The notes under the pieces were generated by a model, which was not told the origin of the DNA, ran no database searches, and worked only from the letters and a program-made list of their open reading frames with translations. The position numbers and the translations under genes are program-made. A DNA stretch of 63,372 bases, counting the filler, from Folioceros fuciformis (taxonomy: Eukaryota): assembly GCA_049999805.1 (NCBI GenBank). It is 3 parts of 3 records of this genome, joined end to end, with 100 filler letters (N's around TTAATTAATTAA, not from the genome) between each part and the next. Parts side by side here need not be neighbours in the genome. Positions count along the whole stretch, not along the records: positions 38,332 to 63,372 come from JBNGIO010006274.1; 2 more parts are not named here. The stretch is one strand, 5' to 3'. The first letter of the stretch is position 1, and each line of letters begins with the position of its first letter. This document shows, one piece after another, positions 19,701 through 52,199 of the stretch.

Positions 19701-22484
19701 CCCAATATTCATCTCCAATGCTTTCAAGTTTCGCCCTTTCCATTGAAGGGTGTCAGTGAAATTTTTCCAAATCTCTGAGGTCACTGGGTCATCAGCTGTC
19801 TTGACTGATCGAGTTACTAAGAGGTTGGCCAGGAGTACAAGACTGTCCTCTGATAGTGCACAAGCCATCTCTGCTTCCTTGAACATTTGACGGGCAAGAT
19901 GTAACTCCAAAGTATCGGATAAGGCACCCCTTAATATGAGGGCGTGGAGCAAGTCGAATGAACCCTTATGCAGCTGACGAAGCAGGTCTGAACTTCCTTC
20001 GACATCTCCCATCTCATCAATACTCATCCCTCTATCCATCATAGTGGATTGTGAGAAAAGAACTTGAAGAAAGATGTCAACATGTTCCTTAGTCAACTGC
20101 TTGCAACCAGCAGCAAAAGTCTGTTGATGCCAATCTGGGGAAAATGCACAATCCTTTAAAAAGCTCAGCACTTGAAATGCCGTCTGAAGGGGGGTATTGT
20201 ACAAACCATCTAACTTCTTGGTTGAGGAGCAGCCTTGAGTGTTGCCATCCGAATTAACGGAATTCCTGCCAGATTCAGAAAAAAGGTCCCCAAACAATGC
20301 ATCATCTTCACTTGCTATAGTTACACAATCAATTGCGCCTATAGTCTCCTCCTCACTTTGAACCGACGACGCAATCTCAACCAGTGGCCTGACCTTTAGG
20401 CCTTGAGCATGAAGAAGACTAGTGACTCCAATAAGGTTGTCCAGCCAGCGGACATTGCCAGCGAAAACAACCTCCAAATGCTCCTGCTGACTTCGTTCTT
20501 GGTACAATGCAAAGCTCCGTCCACGAAGCTGTACATTCAGGGATCTGTCCAACCCCCCAGCATCCATTCCACTGATCCCCACATTACCAGCCGCTCTTTT
20601 TCCTCCCGGTGCCTGAAATCTACTGTGTGAATGAGCATGAGTGTCCTGGAACATGCCAAGAAGATGACTGATGACATGTGGAGTGCAGGCCAATGGCAAC
20701 TGCTGGGCAAGAGAAGCTTCATTTCTTGCCTTGGAGAGCTCCAAAGCATCTAACAGGGAGGCCGTGAGATACGTCCTCAGATTGAAAAAAATGGTCTGAT
20801 CTGGCAGAACAACCTCTCCCAACTGAAGCAAGCCCTCCAGGACTGCAGGCAGAGGAAAAGCTTGATCGTTGTCAAGAATATCCTCTGAGTCTGCATTGCT
20901 AACGTCATGAGTAAGCTTCAAAAACGCAGGCACCGTTGCTGCCAGTTCCACCAATTTTGCTGGCACGTCCTTCTCTAGCTTTCCACACCCAGATTCCCGT
21001 GCAACGCTGACCAGCAGCTTGAGAATGCCAGATACCAACGAAGCCTTTCCCTGTGCAAGCCTGTCCTCTTCATCAGAGTCTAGATGCAGGCAAGCATCAA
21101 GCACTGTCTTGCATATGGCTAGCAGACGGGATACACACTGCGTATTCGCCATTGCAAACATTTGTGTTGCAGATAAGATAGTTGTAATAGGCTTCAGAAG
21201 TCCCCCGGAAACGTTACTCCTCGACTCATGGGCAAGAAGTTGCTCACCAGCCAAAAGAGTCAATATACTTGCCGAACTGCCAGCTTCGTTATAATTACAA
21301 GAAGAGCCTACTGTTCAACACCAAGCCACAAATGTTATTGCTCCAAAACATAACGTCTGGAGGGGTGCGATAATGAGGACAGGAAGTTGGCAAATTGTCA
21401 TTGCAGAAAGCAACTTATTGGGTACGGTACNNNNNNNNNNNNNNNNNNNNNNNNNNNNNNNNNNNNNNNNNNNNNNNNNNNNNNNNNNNNNNNNNNNNNN
21501 NNNNNNNNNNNNNNNNNNNNNNNNNNNNNNGTATCACATTCGGCCCCGTCCAAATCCAGCTACGGCAGACACTTAGAGACTCGAAACAACCTGCACAAAC
21601 GTCACTCATGTCTTTAGAACTGTCCTCAGTCAGCACCCTGCGACCTCATGCCAGAAACCCTAACTCTTGCCACCAAAAGACCCTGTCCTGGGCAGTGTGT
21701 TCCAGTGACGGTGGTAAGAATTACTGTAGGTTCAGACGCGACGGTGCTGGAGGGAAGAAAGGTCGTCCATTGGATCTAACAATTAATTTGCGCAAGCAGT
21801 AGGTAGCCAATTCTACCATCCACCCTCAACCTCGCATTCAGTTGCGACGTGCAGGATTGCAGGCGGCATTCAGGAGGAATTGGCAGGAGCTGGGATTAGC
21901 CTACAACGGAAACACGATCGGGCATTCCTTCCGTCCCGGAGACTGTAGCTGGAGTAGGAGCAGAGTGAGATTACCTCCTGGATCGAAGGAGAGACGGTGA
22001 TCGCATGCGGTTGCTGGACATAATGCTCCAAGCCGTGCAAAGAAAGGCGCACCGCCAGAGCATAGACCTGCTGAACAACCTCTTTCTCCCCGGAATCTAC
22101 AGCCACCGAAGCCCACATTTAGCCTGCTGGCGGCAATGGCAGGAGCCCAATTTACGGCCGGAGCGGCCTGGATGCAGCAAAGGAACCAAAAACAGCAGCA
22201 TTGGGAACGACGAATCAATCCTTCCATCCATCCGTAACCCAGGAGCAGGCTCCAGATCCCGAACCTAGAACCAAATCGCAGCACGCAGAGACGAGCGCCT
22301 CGAGAAGCGCCAATACAAAGTCCCACTGCTGCTTGGTCCAGCGCGCCAGGCCCTGGTCTCCCAGGCCGGCGAGCAGAATAGCGGCAAGCTGGCGCAGGCC
22401 GGCCTGGAGCGCGGGGTCTGGGAGGCGCGCCAGCAGGCCCCGGCGCTGCTCCAGGACCTGGGCGAGCTTGTGCAGCGGGTCCAT
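4763..22484 (-). CDS. BIG: Auxin transport protein BIG / UBR4-like E3 ligase (multi-exon, roughly 5000 aa)
   Basis: UBR box [21 protein letters not shown]...CHRGH...FFCDCG (~16800-17005), ZZ finger CCDGC...[15 protein letters not shown] (~13230-13325), Cys-rich CPRC...CSNC...CRQC...CNEC (~10580-10715) and C-terminal CMVCREGY...HFQCH. The putative first exon [11 protein letters not shown]...WTKQQW at 22484 resembles the BIG N-terminus. The 5' model is uncertain because of the N gap at 21431-21530. Confidence 0.96.
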
Positions 22485-24495: not shown

Positions 24496-24595
24496 NNNNN
24501 NNNNNNNNNNNNNNNNNNNNNNNNNNNNNNNNNNNNNNNTTAATTAATTAANNNNNNNNNNNNNNNNNNNNNNNNNNNNNNNNNNNNNNNNNNNN
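24496..24595. other. Artificial scaffold linker N44-TTAATTAATTAA-N44
   Basis: TTAATTAATTAA at 24540-24551 (stops in all six frames) centred in Ns; an identical construct occurs at 38232-38331. Confidence 0.95.
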
Positions 24596-35400: not shown

Positions 35401-36888
35401 GATGGCAGGAGCAAACGAGTTAAATCTTGCCCTAGCTAGCACGGCCTAAGGGGAAACATTCCCAGGATCGAAATAGTCAGGATGAGCGAAAAACCAATAC
35501 AGATCAAATAAAGATCATCATGTTCTTCAAGGCTAGCCTCACCCGTATCTTGTCATAGAAGTCACAAGACCTCTATGCTGCAGGCACTCGCTGGCTTCTC
35601 CACTAAAACAAGTGAAGGGTTTATGATGGAAAGAGATTTGAACTTTTCACAAATGTGGTGTAGGACCTTGATACCATCAGACAAGTTGTTGATCAGATCT
35701 CGTAGGTCATGAGACCTTTTGTGAGCCATAGTGAGTTGTTTCCTAAATGAGATCTTAGTTGGAGTCGGCACTATCGTTGCTTCATGAACAGAGAGGAAGG
35801 GCCTTGCAATGCCTTTGATTGCCTCCGGCAGAGAAACTGATGGCTGTGGCTAGCAGGTGGAGTTGCACACCATTTTGTGGCACTATTAAATCACATACGT
35901 TGCTCGCTCGCAGAAACGATCGCATTGAGCCTAGATGGCTTTGATGCCACATTGGTTTCGAGCGCGGATTGGGTCAAGCTATCATCGCAAGCGAGCACAC
36001 GAGCAACTGTCATTAATTATTATAGTCATCGAGCCACTAGCTTAAGTGTGCTGTAGCCTGCTGAGTTAATAACGGTCTATCACTTGAAATTCTAAACCAC
36101 CATAATGGAGTTATTTACTACATGTAACTTTGGATTTCCTACGTAGATGCACCTTCTGTTCTCCTAATATCTCCCCCTTCCTCTTATTCTTGACCCAACC
36201 GTATCCACTAACGATGGTATAGAGGGTAAGGATGATTGAAAGTTTGCACCTCCGCCAATAGTTACACGCACTCCTCCTGTTCCTCAAGCTGCAATTCGTC
36301 ATCCAGCAATTGTGTTTACACCGTTAGCACCTGCACCAGCTCTACCTACCACTCATGTTACCCCAGCTTCTCCTCCCAGCTCTCCACACTACTAGCGCAA
36401 CAAACATGCCTTGTTTGTTATGCCTTTTGTTACAATGTTTGTTATGGTGGACAAAACCCTAAACTGGGTAAGCCCTAAACTGTGGTTTGGCCCACACGTA
36501 GTGGCCTTGTTACGCTTTGCGATGCATTAATCGCATCAGCCTTTAAATAAAACGAGCGCTCAGCTTCTTAGGTAGCATTCCTCCTTAGCCATAATCGCTC
36601 AAAATGACCTCCTGGATGTTGTGCGATTACATTTATAATCTATTTGATTTGATACGTGTCTGATGTTCAGGCAGTATAGAACAAACTTTTAGGGGGCCCA
36701 CATTCAGAGTTTTGTAGAGAATCGTCTAGCCAATGGCTGCGCCTCCCCGCGTTAGAGGTCCTCCTCCTTGGATCGTAGGAAGGCATTGCATGTTGCTGTA
36801 GGGAGGTGGAAATGCCTAACATTGCATTTCCTCTTGANNNNNNNNNNAGGGAGGTGGAAATGCCTAACATTGCATTTCCTCTTGACAC

Positions 36889-38231: not shown

Positions 38232-38331
38232 NNNNNNNNNNNNNNNNNNNNNNNNNNNNNNNNNNNNNNNNNNNNTTAATTAATTAANNNNNNNNNNNNN
38301 NNNNNNNNNNNNNNNNNNNNNNNNNNNNNNN
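38232..38331. other. Artificial scaffold linker N44-TTAATTAATTAA-N44
   Basis: TTAATTAATTAA at 38276-38287 between two 44-N runs. Confidence 0.95.
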
Positions 38332-44613: not shown

Positions 44614-47512
44614 TCACATGTGGCCCTTCAAGGCTTCCTGGATGTCTTCGTGTTTCCGCAACTTGGCTTCGTCCGCAGGGGTGTTCCCATTTCTGCAACA
44701 GAGACGATATTCTGGTCTTTAGGAAGACGAACCCACAATTGTGATTAGTTTTTTAGAGAGCGGGGAACGCGGGAGAGTTACCTGGATCTGACGGACACGT
44801 CAGCGCCCAGTTCGAGGAGGAGTTTCACGGCTTCCACAGTCCCGTAAGCGACAGCAATGTGCAGCGCGGTCTGCTTGCCATAGTCCTCGCTGTTGATATC
44901 CAGGCCGTGGAGGACCAAACGCTTCACATACTCCATGTCACCACAAGCTGCTGCTTGGCAGAGCTCCAGACCTGGATCCTGCCACCACTTGCCACGTTAA
45001 GTCATCCGTCCCTCAAATGGAGGGCGACATATACAGCCCAAGCTACCAAGGCACACACCATCTCACCTCCAGTAGAAGAGCCGCGCCATGCTGACACAGA
45101 AGTTCGGCGACCTTGTCATGGCCCGCCTTCAAAGTGCTCACCAAGGCAGTCCGGCCCCACACATCTGGCGCGTTGGGAAGTTAGCATGTCACCGCCCTCA
45201 ATAACGGGTTGTTATCACAATCCTGATCACAAGGAACGGGAGAAGCTGCAGGTGGAATTTTTGGCTACCTTTCGCATTCACGTCCTCGCCTATCCCTATC
45301 AGGAGCTCCACACAGTCGAGGTGACCGTTCATGGCTGCTACATGCTAAACATAGAGCACACACAAACAAGTGTTACATCGTGCGAATCACCAGTTAATGA
45401 GGAAAGAACGAAACAACGCCAACGAGAACCAGGATTGGTCTCAACAATCATATACTACTCAGCAAGCATCACCCCATCCAAGTCCACTAAAAGGAAAAGA
45501 CTCAACCCGAAAGTCCCAGCCAAGTATCGGCAGCGCCACTCCTGCCCGGACACCTGCCCCAGCTCTGAAGCAGGCTTGACGAGCCAAGTTCGCGACCCTC
45601 CAGCACCAATAGATAAACACTGACACGTCTACACTTGACTAAAGACCACGTAGACGTACTTCCACGCTGACTCCTAGAACATAGAACAGAAAGGGGCGAA
45701 TGATTTCCAACTGCAAAACCCTACCAGCCGCTTAATACTTGTGAATGCAAGCAACAATGTTGGGCCAGTGTGTTCCAGTCATGTCATCATCAAGCAGAAA
45801 CTGAGCTGCTTGTTGATGCAAGGATTGCTGGCTTCACAGCTTTTTTTTCCCTGGTAGGTTTCTCTTCGGACTTGCCGCAACATACCACCAGCAGCAAACA
45901 GCAAAAGCTGCTGCTACAGTCACTGGCAAAATAGAGTGGAGAACATGCATCCACAAACCACAGAGTGATGGTCAAATCCCGCAAGACATCCTACCTATCC
46001 TGTCAATGCTCAAGCACGAGCAACCAACAGACTTCCATCAATAAGCCTGCATGCCCCACGTTACCCCTGCACGTCACACACTATCGAGAAGCTAGAAACA
46101 ACAGCTGGGCCAACTTTCACGGCTGCAATACCCTGCAAAAACACAACACCATCCTCTCCGACCTCACAGTGAAATCTGAACAATTCAGTGTAGGGAGAAG
46201 CTGTGAAGTTGGAATAGATACCAATGCTGTCCGCCCCAAGAAATCAGAAGAAGGCGCACTGCCAGCCCGCAAGGCTTGTCGTAGTGATGCCACATCTCCC
46301 TTCTCCGCAAAGGTCCAAACATCTTGAGTTGATCCACTTGTCGCAGCACTCGACACAGCTTGGGCATCAGCAGCCTGTGGCGGCTGACCGAGCTTTCTTA
46401 AAGCAATGGCAAACTCGAAGGTAGCTATGGTGTACTGGCCAGCTTGCACAGGGTTAAGAATGTCGATGATCTCCCTCAGAGCACGGCATCGCAACATCTC
46501 TGCCTCAACAACCAGCTGGCGCAATGCAGCAAGCTTGGGCGCAATCGCATCTCGTATCCTAGAGAGATCAAAAGATTCACTCGGTGGAGGCTCTGCCAGT
46601 GTTGCGCTTGCCAAGGGTTGGTCAGCCACATTCATCTGCAGTCCAGGAAACGAAGGCTCGCAGATCAAACAAGACGTCCAAAAACTCTCACACAGCATGC
46701 ACACTTGTTATTTACGCCTCTCCCATCTGGTCTACTAGCAGAACCTTTTTCCGGTCACATTTACCTACCTATCCATCAGCAGAAATCGGGCGTTTCCTCG
46801 CGATGCAGGAAAAGAAGGGAAGAAATAGGACAAGAAAAGGACGATTCAAGAAAAAAGACACATCACGTGACAAATTCTCCCACTGCTTTCCCTGGCAAGA
46901 CCAACACTGTTATGACGCGAACCTGCAAAACTGCACTAGGATCAGCCATCTCCCTCAGTCTGGCCACCTTAAGAAAAGGAGCATCCAGCTCACCACAGCA
47001 CACACAGTCGCTGCTACCTGCTGCAGGGCGAAGTTCTTGTCAATGCTGTCCTCCTCGTCCCGCAGATGTCGTTGCAATGAGTCCACCTTGTGAATTTGAG
47101 TACTGGAAAGAGATGCCAGCGCTGGCACGTCGCAGCCTTCTAGCAGACTCAGCAAATCTGCCTGGAACTCGTGGCCGGCTGTCAACTTTGGAAAGGATTC
47201 CTTCACCTGCGCTCCCATCAAGGAGAAGAGGAGGACGGTGGCTGTGATTGGCCTGTAGCCCCCTAGCCATAGCAAGCCCGATATGTAAGAGGTCTGCCAC
47301 CGGCCTCCCGCCACATACGACAAGTCCTCCTCAGCAACCTGAGTCTTGACCCGCGCACAATCATGGTACAGCTTGCAACAGCTTTCCACAAGCAGGATGA
47401 TCTCCTGGTCCGAGTGGTGCTGATCCAAAGCCTTGCGCAGAGCTGCGAGCTGGTGTTTCGCCTGGTCCAGCCAGTCGGCGTAGAATCTCTCAAATCCTTC
47501 TCCCACATTCAT
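44614..47512 (-). CDS. DOG1-domain protein with C-terminal ankyrin repeats, 6 exons
   Basis: Exons 47512-47018, 46635-46222, 45344-45269, 45164-45067, 44978-44782 and 44692-44614, all GT-AG and in frame. DOG1 motifs FERFYADW, WQTSY..LLWLGGYRP and AEMLRCRALREIIDILNPVQAGQY. Ankyrin motifs GRTALHVAA, GRTALV, KQTALHIAV and GNTPADEA. Confidence 0.92.
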
Positions 47513-50372: not shown

Positions 50373-52199
50373 TCATCTGTTTCCAGGTGGAGTGCTGTCA
50401 CCGTTAGTCGTGCGGCTTCCCTCAGCTGCACCGCCGGTTAACGCAAGAATGTCCGGCGTTATCTCCCAGCTTCCGCTTTTCCGACCCCAGCTCGACCGCC
50501 TGGGGTGAGGCGCACTCCTTGGCTCATGATTATCATGAGTCAGAGGCCGCCCAAAGCCAGGGGCAAATGCGTCCTCATATCCATCTTTGCTATCCATGGG
50601 CAGATCTCCAACGTCACTCACACGAGTGTGCAGGTCACCCAATACCTCTTCTGTGGGTACAGGCCATGACGTTTTCCCCAGTTCAACGTCAGTTGACGGT
50701 TTCATCCCATCCGATCGGGTCAATTCGTTGTCTGAAACCTGAGAATGGATCTGCCCAGACGAAGGCTCCAACTCCGCTCTGGCACGAAACTTGTTCTTAG
50801 ATTTCTCAATTTTGGTGAAAAATATCTCCTGGAAATTCCTCCACACTCCCCGGTTGTATGGATTCACCTTACTGTCATAGCGGTACCTGAAGTTTTCATA
50901 GGTTGTCTGCACAACACACAACAGGACGGATCAGATGCGTACCCTAGTGCGGTGCGCTGAGCTGAGCTCCAGGTCATTGATCATGCTGATGGGGGGCTAG
51001 CATGGGGCGGCAGAAAGCGCACCATGTTCTCAGTACGCTCTAACCAAACATCACACCAACGACTGTGAGGGGGAGGGGAGTGCTTTTGTCAACCAAGGCG
51101 GACCGTGCAACATTGGCTGACGCACAGACAAAAGGCTGACCACAGCAACAGCAAAGCTATCTCTGCTCTCTCAGAAGTAAGAGGCTATCGTTACAACAAC
51201 AAAGNNNNNNNNNNNNNNNNNNNNNNNNNNNNNNNNNNNNNNNNNNNNNNNNNNNNNNNNNNNNNNNNNNNNNNNNNNNNNNNNNNNNNNNNNNNNNNNN
51301 NNNNGTCCTTGGAAAAGAAAGGCAGACAAAACGAGGCAAAGCAAAAGAAAAAGCAAGAGGAGCCCCTAGTTGGAGATTTCCAACCACAAGCAAAGAAAAA
51401 GGAAAAGTCCGGCTGAAACACGGCTGACCTGATTGGTGCTGATGAGGTACAGGTGAAACATGGTAAGCCCACCAACAAACCACACTGCTACGAATGTGTA
51501 TACCATGAGCACAATGGATGCAGGAGCATGTGCCAAAGCCCTCCACACTGTTCGCGAGTGACCCGTTTCGGGCTTCATGTGAAACTTGATGCTCCAAGCC
51601 GACACGGAAAACACAAAAATGCACAATAGGGTGGTGGAGAAGACAAACATGAAGAAGAACCTGTAATTTCGCTGGCCAATGCACTGCCCGACCCATGGAC
51701 AGTGGTGGTCAAAGCGCTGGACGCAGTTGTTACAGATGGAGCAGTGAGAGCAGCGGGGAGGTCTGTATAGCATGCAAGTATCGCAATACTTGGTCTTGAC
51801 CGCCACGCCATTGACAATCACATCCTTAGTGCGAGGAAAGCGGAGCCTGGGCGTCTGGCCACCCCACTCAGCTGGAGACGCAGCATTGTCATGATCCTCT
51901 TCAGGCTCTGGCGGATGCGTATTCCTCGGGAGAATACCGGGATCCCTTCCTGACGTGAGCAGCAGCAGGAAGAGAAGCCCTATCATGTAGACCAAGGTGA
52001 CCGCAATAATGGCTACCCCCCAGACGTGGTCTATCCTCTTGAGCAAGTCCCTCCCAACAAAGGAGCAGAAAATGACGGTGGGCACGACGATGAGGAAAAT
52101 GGTGAAAGCCAGAGACCTGACATCCGGGCCGAATATTAATCTCCCGCCGAGGAAAAACCTGTTGTGCCCTTTCCACTCCTCGTAGACACGCTTGGCCAT
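50373..52199 (-). CDS. PAT: DHHC palmitoyltransferase (protein S-acyltransferase, Erf2-like plant clade), 2 coding exons
   Basis: MAKRVYEEWKGHNRFFLGGRLIFGPD, DPG, KYCDTCMLYRPPRCSHCSICNNCVQRFDHHCPWVGQCIG and TTYENFRY. Exons 52199-51429 and 50906-50373; an alternative ATG lies at 52253. Confidence 0.96.

What the first reader, a model, noticed from the sequence alone, without database searches (positions are those of the whole stretch)
44614..47512. DOG1 domain fused to a Shaker-channel-like ankyrin module
Seen: four small exons absent from the ORF track complete the tail DFLGRTALHVAAMNGHLDCVELLIGIGEDVNAKDVWGRTALVSTLKAGHDKVAELLCQHGAALLLEDPGLELCQAAACGDMEYVKRLVLHGLDINSEDYGKQTALHIAVAYG...GNTPADEA. 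From memory this is colinear with the ankyrin domain of SKOR/GORK-type K+ channels, including the G..LC.A...GD...KRL repeat that lacks the TPLH start. Seed-plant DOG1 binds heme and clade A PP2Cs and has no ankyrins; I recall ankyrin-bearing DOG1-like proteins in moss, so the fusion itself may be known. Inference: the module came from a Shaker channel and may link dormancy/ABA-type signalling to partners of channel ankyrin domains.
Basis: partly seen in the sequence, partly recalled or inferred. Interest (0 to 1): 0.7.

Follow-up and report, generated by a model that had tools for sequence, protein, structure and literature searches.

The report
DOG1 protein with channel-derived ankyrin tail
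A seedless plant gene joins a DOG1 dormancy-type domain to an ankyrin module most likely copied long ago from a potassium channel gene, hinting at an old link between dormancy signalling and channel regulation that nobody has yet tested.

Summary
Observation confirmed. Six GT-AG exons give an open 452-aa protein: a DOG1/TGA-type helical domain plus six ankyrin repeats. Spliced contigs from one run skip all 5 introns, and a full-length transcript orthologue (Nothoceros, 67%) and Selaginella orthologues exist, so the fusion is old in land plants.

Channel origin is well supported:
- 3 of 4 ankyrin introns sit at the same column and phase as in both GORK/SKOR-type genes of this genome (0 of 7 control introns do).
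- A GORK/SKOR-type module is the best single match for 8 of 8 family members.
- Structural searches rank GORK and a plant channel ankyrin domain first.

The tree is not decisive. It cannot separate outward channel, inward channel or their ancestor, and the AU test does not reject generic ankyrins.

The C-terminal DOG1 helix has no His, so DOG1-type heme binding is unlikely, and CIPK23 docking is a feature of AKT1-type, not GORK-type, ankyrins. Most likely it is a heme-independent, non-DNA-binding adaptor; partners are untested. The fusion is already in databases and may be described for moss (paper not held). I found no paper on its channel origin.

The parts
47018..47512 (-). Exon 1 (aa 1-165): N-terminal part of the DOG1/TGA-NID helical domain
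   Evidence: Pfam DOG1 E=1.4e-14; TGA7/TGA3 E=2e-15 to 2e-13; covered by spliced contig
46636..47017 (-). Intron 1, 382 nt, phase 0; same position as in the ankyrin-less DOG1-like paralogue on G000 C6342
46222..46635 (-). Exon 2 (aa 166-303): end of DOG1 domain (to about aa 248), low-complexity linker, ankyrin repeat 1 and start of repeat 2; the fusion junction lies inside this exon
45345..46221 (-). Intron 2, 877 nt, phase 0 (TAL|H); same column and phase as in both outward and the inward channel genes of this genome
45269..45344 (-). Exon 3 (76 nt), ankyrin repeat 2; the following phase-1 intron is shared with all three channel genes
45067..45164 (-). Exon 4 (98 nt), ankyrin repeat 3 (short, 31-residue step to repeat 4); the following phase-0 intron is absent from the three channel genes
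44782..44978 (-). Exon 5 (197 nt), ankyrin repeats 4-5; the following phase-2 intron is shared with both outward channel genes, not the inward one
44614..44692 (-). Exon 6 (79 nt), ankyrin repeat 6 and stop; no KHA domain follows

Best explanation
Shown: one spliced gene encodes a soluble protein with a DOG1/TGA-NID helical domain, no bZIP, and a six-repeat (3+3) ankyrin module; the same architecture occurs in another hornwort and a lycophyte. Strongly inferred (about 0.85): the module was copied at DNA level, introns included, from the 3' part of a plant Shaker-like K+ channel gene, either the GORK/SKOR lineage or the ancestor of inward and outward channels. It landed in exon 2 of a DOG1-like gene before hornworts and vascular plants split, without the pore, CNBD or KHA. 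Inferred (about 0.5): it works as a heme-independent two-handed adaptor. The DOG1 domain binds the partners known for this fold (clade A PP2C, DELLA, or another DOG1/TGA domain), and the ankyrin module gives a second docking or pairing surface like the one channels use, so that it tunes ABA/dormancy-type signalling in spores or stressed tissue.
For: Gene and splicing. Orthologues with both domains: Nothoceros transcript, Selaginella RefSeq models, 5 unnamed clusters. Introns: 3 of 4 match both outward channel genes and 2 of 4 match the inward one; 0 of 7 introns in three other ankyrin genes match. Channels typed by pore: GORK/SKOR E=1e-48 to 2e-44, AKT1 E=3e-51. Best single alignment among 270 ankyrin sequences is an outward channel for 8 of 8 queries, with 0-1 gap columns. 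The repeat-4 signature is in 2 of 270, both outward channels. Foldseek rank 1 is GORK; VIA rank 1 of 48,161 is a plant channel ankyrin domain, Z 22.1. GORK has the same 3+3 layout (10.1101/2024.12.17.628833 passages; internal duplication). His-less DOGL5.2 still binds AHG1 without heme (PMC5989226 passages).
Against: Tree: family plus outward channels has support of only 36/11, and AU tests reject no alternative, including grouping with generic ankyrins (p=0.33). The supported 19-row clade also holds an ankyrin histidine kinase and two ankyrin-only proteins. For the window protein itself the margin is thin: 130 bits against 129 for an unnamed cNMP-ankyrin protein. Fold margins over designed ankyrins are small (Z 22.1 against 20.5). 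ESM Atlas gave only generic ankyrins. The comparison set had no seed-plant, moss or algal channels and no asparaginase-type ankyrins. There are no data on partners, location or stage of expression.
Confidence: 0.65

Rival explanations
1. Direct channel regulator: the ankyrin module pairs with the ankyrin domains of GORK/SKOR-type channels, breaks their autoinhibitory dimer or brings them a phosphatase, and so couples dormancy/ABA signals to K+ efflux.
For: Ankyrin pairing holds GORK autoinhibited and is also seen in SKOR (passages). The genome has two outward channels whose modules are 36-48% identical to the family. PP2CA binds the GORK C-terminus (PMC8644596 table).
Against: The window's module has drifted to 39% identity with the outward channels and has changed hairpin-loop residues. 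No co-expression or localisation data.
Confidence: 0.12
2. Transcriptional cofactor: a one-chain mimic of the TGA-NPR pair or a bZIP-less TGA/DELLA partner acting in the nucleus, with the channel origin functionally irrelevant.
For: The N-terminal domain has the TGA3 NID fold (Z 18.5, rmsd 2.9, 201 aligned), and that domain binds NPR1 ankyrins (PMC9360754 passage). Moss PpDOG1-L1 binds DELLAs (second-hand in PMC12251688).
Against: The ankyrins match channels by introns and best hits. NPR-type ankyrins were not in the tree, so that comparison was not run. No localisation evidence.
Confidence: 0.22
3. The module came from a non-channel protein carrying a related ancient six-repeat module (for example ASPG-type asparaginase, recalled to have a similar G.ELC repeat), and resembles channels only by deeper common ancestry.
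For: The AU test does not reject grouping with non-channel ankyrins. The family has ELC where the outward channels have FLC.
Against: Three shared intron positions and phases and gapless colinearity. No asparaginase match in this genome (exon-wise search of a fragmented assembly, so weak).
Confidence: 0.1
4. Artefact: a DOG1 gene and a separate ankyrin remnant wrongly joined across the 877-nt gap.
For: No single contig of X1 spans both halves, the joint has a 30-letter side, and an intron-retaining contig exists. Some database models stop at this intron (P0157, P0003).
Against: Repeats 1-2 begin in exon 2, before the intron. The spliced joint is in the deeper contig (167 against 19.7). Full-length orthologues are colinear.
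Confidence: 0.02

Closest known systems
Selaginella moellendorffii 'protein DOG1-like 3' (XP_024522828.1, XP_024533576.1) and Nothoceros aenigmaticus EP00246 P005258
   Same: Same DOG1 plus six-ankyrin architecture, colinear over the full length. NCBI auto-named one Selaginella isoform 'potassium channel KOR2'.
   Different: Database annotations only; no function seen in the papers searched. The two hornwort-type proteins carry a 13-residue insert in the DOG1 domain and a faster-evolving ankyrin module.
Arabidopsis DOG1 / DOG1-like family
   Same: DOG1 domain without bZIP; Y..W kept in the segment matching DSYLEW, the AHG1-binding motif (passage; the match is by eye and TGAs also keep Y..W).
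   Different: Has an ankyrin tail. No His from aa 150 to 255, so no equivalent of the heme ligands His245/His249; more like heme-less DOGL5.2.
GORK/SKOR (and AKT1) plant Shaker-like K+ channels
   Same: Six-repeat 3+3 ankyrin module, 31-residue step at repeat 3, shared introns, 36-48% identity to this genome's outward channels.
   Different: No transmembrane core, CNBD, bridge helix or KHA; one extra intron; not a channel.
TGA3-NPR1 complex
   Same: A DOG1/NID fold meeting an ankyrin domain (passage; fold).
   Different: There the two domains are on separate chains and the ankyrins belong to NPR1; here they are on one chain, channel-like, with no DNA-binding domain.
Physcomitrium PpDOG1-L1 (Vollmeister et al. 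2024, doi 10.1111/tpj.16537)
   Same: Seedless-plant DOG1-like protein tied to spore dormancy and DELLA binding (seen only as cited in PMC12251688 and PMC12851517).
   Different: Paper not held. Whether it has ankyrins or is an orthologue was not verified, and no named moss sequence came up in my searches.

Membership tests
DOG1/DOG1-like family | DOG1 domain (PF14144, TGA-NID fold) | tested here: met
   Pfam 54.5 bits over cut-off 27; VIA Z 18.5 to TGA3 NID for the orthologue's model
DOG1/DOG1-like family | No bZIP domain upstream (unlike TGA) | tested here: met
   A stop lies 4 codons before the ATG in frame, contig cover from 47749 into exon 1 has no joint, and orthologues start at the same place
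AtDOG1/DOGL3 heme-binding type | His pair (His245/His249) in the C-terminal helix | tested here: not met
   No His from aa 150 to 255 in the window protein; 0 His in that helix in 10 of 10 aligned relatives. Placing the AtDOG1 residues in this helix rests on recall, not on a direct alignment.
DOG1/DOG1-like family | Binding to clade A PP2C through the N-terminal motif | not testable with these tools
   Y..W is kept but is not diagnostic, as TGAs share it
Plant Shaker-like (CNBD) K+ channel | S1-S6 core, TxGYG pore, CNBD, KHA | tested here: not met
   The 452-aa product consists of DOG1 domain, linker and ankyrins only; the KHA search hits three other contigs only
Shaker-type ankyrin module | Six repeats as a 3+3 tandem with a short third repeat | tested here: met
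   31-residue step in 8 of 8 family members and 3 of 3 channels; halves 44% identical without gaps in P0002 and in the C1665 outward channel, 29% in the window protein
Shaker-type ankyrin module | Shared intron positions and phases | tested here: met
   3 of 4 with both outward genes, 2 of 4 with the inward gene, 0 of 7 control introns
Shaker-type ankyrin module | One clade with channel modules in a tree | tested here: inconclusive
   19-row clade 99/95 includes non-channels; 94/92 in the smaller tree; no AU rejection of any alternative
GORK/SKOR (outward) lineage specifically | Sister to outward rather than inward modules | tested here: inconclusive
   27 residues shared with outward only against 9 with inward only, but the single inward sequence is a long branch and support is 36/11
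ASPG-type asparaginase ankyrin module | Closer grouping than channels | not tested
   No such sequence was retrieved; no Asparaginase match in G000

The most novel reading that the evidence does not exclude
Early land plants built a soluble regulator of outward K+ channels by grafting the channel's own autoinhibitory ankyrin module onto a DOG1 domain. The protein docks on GORK/SKOR-type ankyrins and delivers or sequesters clade A PP2C or DELLA, coupling dormancy/ABA status to K+ efflux in spores, stomata or drying tissue, in a branch of the DOG1 family that seed plants may have lost.
Probability: 0.12. Interest if true: 0.85.

Novelty: new variant of a known kind. Interest (0 to 1): 0.52.

Why it matters
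It gives a datable domain-shuffling event in the DOG1 family. Because a hornwort and a lycophyte share it, it likely predates their split, and so it shows what pre-seed DOG1 proteins looked like: heme-less and fitted with an ion-channel module. It makes testable whether ancestral DOG1-type signalling touched K+ channel regulation, and it shows that models truncated at intron 2 hide the architecture in some annotations.

Tried and rejected
Complex prediction of two copies of the ankyrin module gave no verdict; not used either way.
ESM Atlas returned only generic ankyrin clusters.
Whole-protein and ankyrin-only homologue searches were swamped by many-repeat proteins and listed no plant channel, so channels were taken from the own genome. 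PDB sequence search with exon 5 was likewise led by designed ankyrins.
The metagenome scan found no relative: 180 pattern matches, none confirmed.
Runs X2 and X3 had no cover, and no listed holder is on record as RNA.
Calmodulin/centrin hits to exon 2 (E 0.02-0.6) were treated as chance.
Homologue searches were insensitive (one search found 3 proteins and missed Selaginella), so absence from seed plants, mosses, liverworts or algae is not shown.
Earlier scan findings: none in three look-ups.
Literature: seven searches on DOG1, one on a recalled moss gene id and two on channels showed no title or abstract start on a DOG1-ankyrin fusion or its channel origin. Passages checked had none. The moss paper is not held, and Nishiyama 2021 was not looked up.

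Full report
Observation. I built the gene from the minus strand. Six exons (47512-47018, 46635-46222, 45344-45269, 45164-45067, 44978-44782, 44692-44614) give 452 aa with one terminal stop, and 5 of 5 introns are GT..AG. Exon 1 matches Pfam DOG1 (E=1.4e-14) and exon 5 matches ankyrin models (E=1e-11).

One transcript. Of 3 runs laid, one (X1, guessed RNA, one study) had cover. Its contigs skip all 5 introns at the predicted places. Against this: the 877-nt joint has 30 letters on its short side where the tool asks for 31, no single contig spans both domains, and a contig running into that intron exists (depth 19.7 against 167). Independent support is P0001, a complete Trinity ORF labelled Nothoceros aenigmaticus, 304 of 453 identical with 1 gap over the whole model. 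Ankyrin repeat 1 and the start of repeat 2 lie in exon 2, so the fusion junction is not at the long intron. From P0001 I infer that the window is a hornwort-like genome; that is an inference.

Distribution. DOG1 plus ankyrin also occurs in Selaginella moellendorffii RefSeq models ('DOG1-like 3'; one short isoform is auto-named 'potassium channel KOR2') and in five unnamed clusters. A Ceratopteris model has the DOG1 domain and repeat 1, then diverges just where intron 2 lies; one Selaginella model does the same, which suggests that intron is conserved. These searches were insensitive, so absence from other lineages is not shown. This genome has 4 DOG1-domain matches: a TGA-like gene, a single-exon DOG1-like gene, this gene, and a paralogue on C6342 that shares intron 1 but shows no ankyrin in the 9 kb fetched.

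Origin of the ankyrins: introns. The own genome has three KHA-bearing channel loci. The pore region of C1665 matches GORK/SKOR (E 1e-48 to 2e-44, against 1e-17 for AKT1), and C6248 matches AKT1 (E 3e-51). C5991 was typed only by its 74% ankyrin identity to C1665. In the aligned module the window's introns fall at columns 63 (phase 0), 88 (phase 1), 121 (phase 0) and 186 (phase 2); both outward genes have 63/0, 88/1 and 186/2. The inward gene has the first two and lacks the last. As a control, read by eye, 0 of 7 introns in three other ankyrin genes of this genome (two kinase-like, one acyltransferase-like; labels recalled) lie at those repeat positions and phases. This is a small control.

Origin: sequence and fold. 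I compared 8 family modules with 270 sequences: 259 stored hits (16 DOG1-family proteins left out), 3 channel modules and 8 own-genome ORFs. An outward channel ranked first for 8 of 8, both took ranks 1-2 for 7 of 8, with 0-1 gap columns; the inward channel ranked 15-35. The margin is wide for less diverged members (176 against 133 bits for P0002) and thin for the window protein (130 against 129). The repeat-4 signature occurs in 2 of 270, both outward channels, and the 31-residue step is in all 8 family members and all 3 channels. An AlphaFold model of P0001 (mean pLDDT 69; ankyrin part mostly 77-93) hit GORK first in Foldseek, with designed ankyrins interleaved. VIA ranked a plant K+ channel ankyrin domain (5aar; AKT1 by recall) first of 48,161 at Z 22.1, rmsd 3.2, 185 aligned; the next was a designed protein at 20.5. 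The N-terminal half matched TGA3 NID at Z 18.5, rmsd 2.9, 201 aligned. GORK is described as two tandem three-repeat units (10.1101/2024.12.17.628833, passages); the same internal duplication shows in P0002 and C1665.

Origin: tree, against a strong claim. In a 44-row tree the family is one clade (100/99) inside a 19-row group (99/95) with the three plant channels and eight other rows. Of those eight, 4 have Ion_trans or cNMP matches, one is an ankyrin histidine kinase and three show only ankyrins at that threshold. Inside the group the order is open. In a 25-row tree, family plus outward channels has 36/11, and AU tests reject nothing: with the inward channel p=0.31, with generic ankyrins p=0.33. 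The family shares 27 majority residues only with the outward channels and 9 only with the inward one, but the latter is a long branch. So a channel origin rests on introns, colinearity and best matches, and outward lineage versus common ancestor is unresolved. ASPG-type modules, recalled as similar, were not available for testing.

How it arose (inference). Kept introns mean DNA-level copying, not retroposition. The DOG1 half shares its intron with an ankyrin-less paralogue, the junction lies within exon 2, and pore, CNBD, bridge and KHA are absent. A partial channel duplicate was therefore probably captured by a DOG1-like gene before hornworts and vascular plants diverged.

How it works (inference). 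AtDOG1 binds AHG1 through DSYLEW and heme through His245/His249; DOGL5.2 lacks these His, binds no heme, and still binds AHG1 (PMC5989226, passages). This protein has no His from aa 150 to 255, and 10 of 10 aligned relatives have none in that helix, so DOG1-type heme binding is unlikely. GORK/SKOR ankyrins pair through hairpin loops to autoinhibit the channel. The most likely reading is a soluble two-handed adaptor in ABA/dormancy-type signalling. A nuclear TGA/DELLA cofactor and a direct channel regulator are the rivals. None of these steps is shown.

Known or new. Ten searches showed no paper on the fusion or its channel origin. The library lacks most subscription journals, and I read no supplements, which may bear on this. 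All papers were seen as search listings or passages, none in full.

Verdict. A real, old fusion with a well-supported channel-derived module and untested function: a new variant of a known kind, interest 0.52.

Noticed in passing
G000:C1665 (L011) and G000:C5991 (L003, L013): Two GORK/SKOR-type outward K+ channel genes in a hornwort-like genome, whereas PMC4565715 (passage) says outward features first appear in vascular plants. Later work may already report hornwort outward channels (recalled, not checked).
   Followed up: partly
G000:C6342 (L018, L026): DOG1-like paralogue sharing intron 1 with this gene, but with a long Ser/Pro-rich tail and no ankyrin in the 9 kb fetched.
   Followed up: partly
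G000:C5475 (L016): Single-exon plain DOG1-like gene, 33% identical to the DOG1 half.
   Followed up: partly
window 43812-39601, minus strand: Neighbouring histidine kinase gene with MASE1 (28.2 bits, just under the cut-off of 29.8), HisKA and HATPase matches, starting about 800 nt after the stop; a (GGGGAC)n run lies near 43960-43915.
   Followed up: no
P0069: Unnamed 1521-aa protein with many ankyrins fused to HisKA, HATPase and receiver domains; its repeats group near the channel-type module.
   Followed up: no
P0161, P0162, P0164: Prymnesium proteins with Ion_trans or cNMP domains and long ankyrin arrays related to the plant channel module.
   Followed up: partly
window 21314-1910 minus; 19-1431 plus; 29564-27970 minus; 52304-50376 minus: Long ORFs that look like a BIG/UBR4-type gene, beta-tubulin, a copia-like remnant and a DHHC acyltransferase (labels recalled, not tested).
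   Followed up: no
window 21431-21530, 24496-24595, 36838-36847, 38232-38331, 51205-51304: Seven N runs; none lies inside the gene studied.
   Followed up: no
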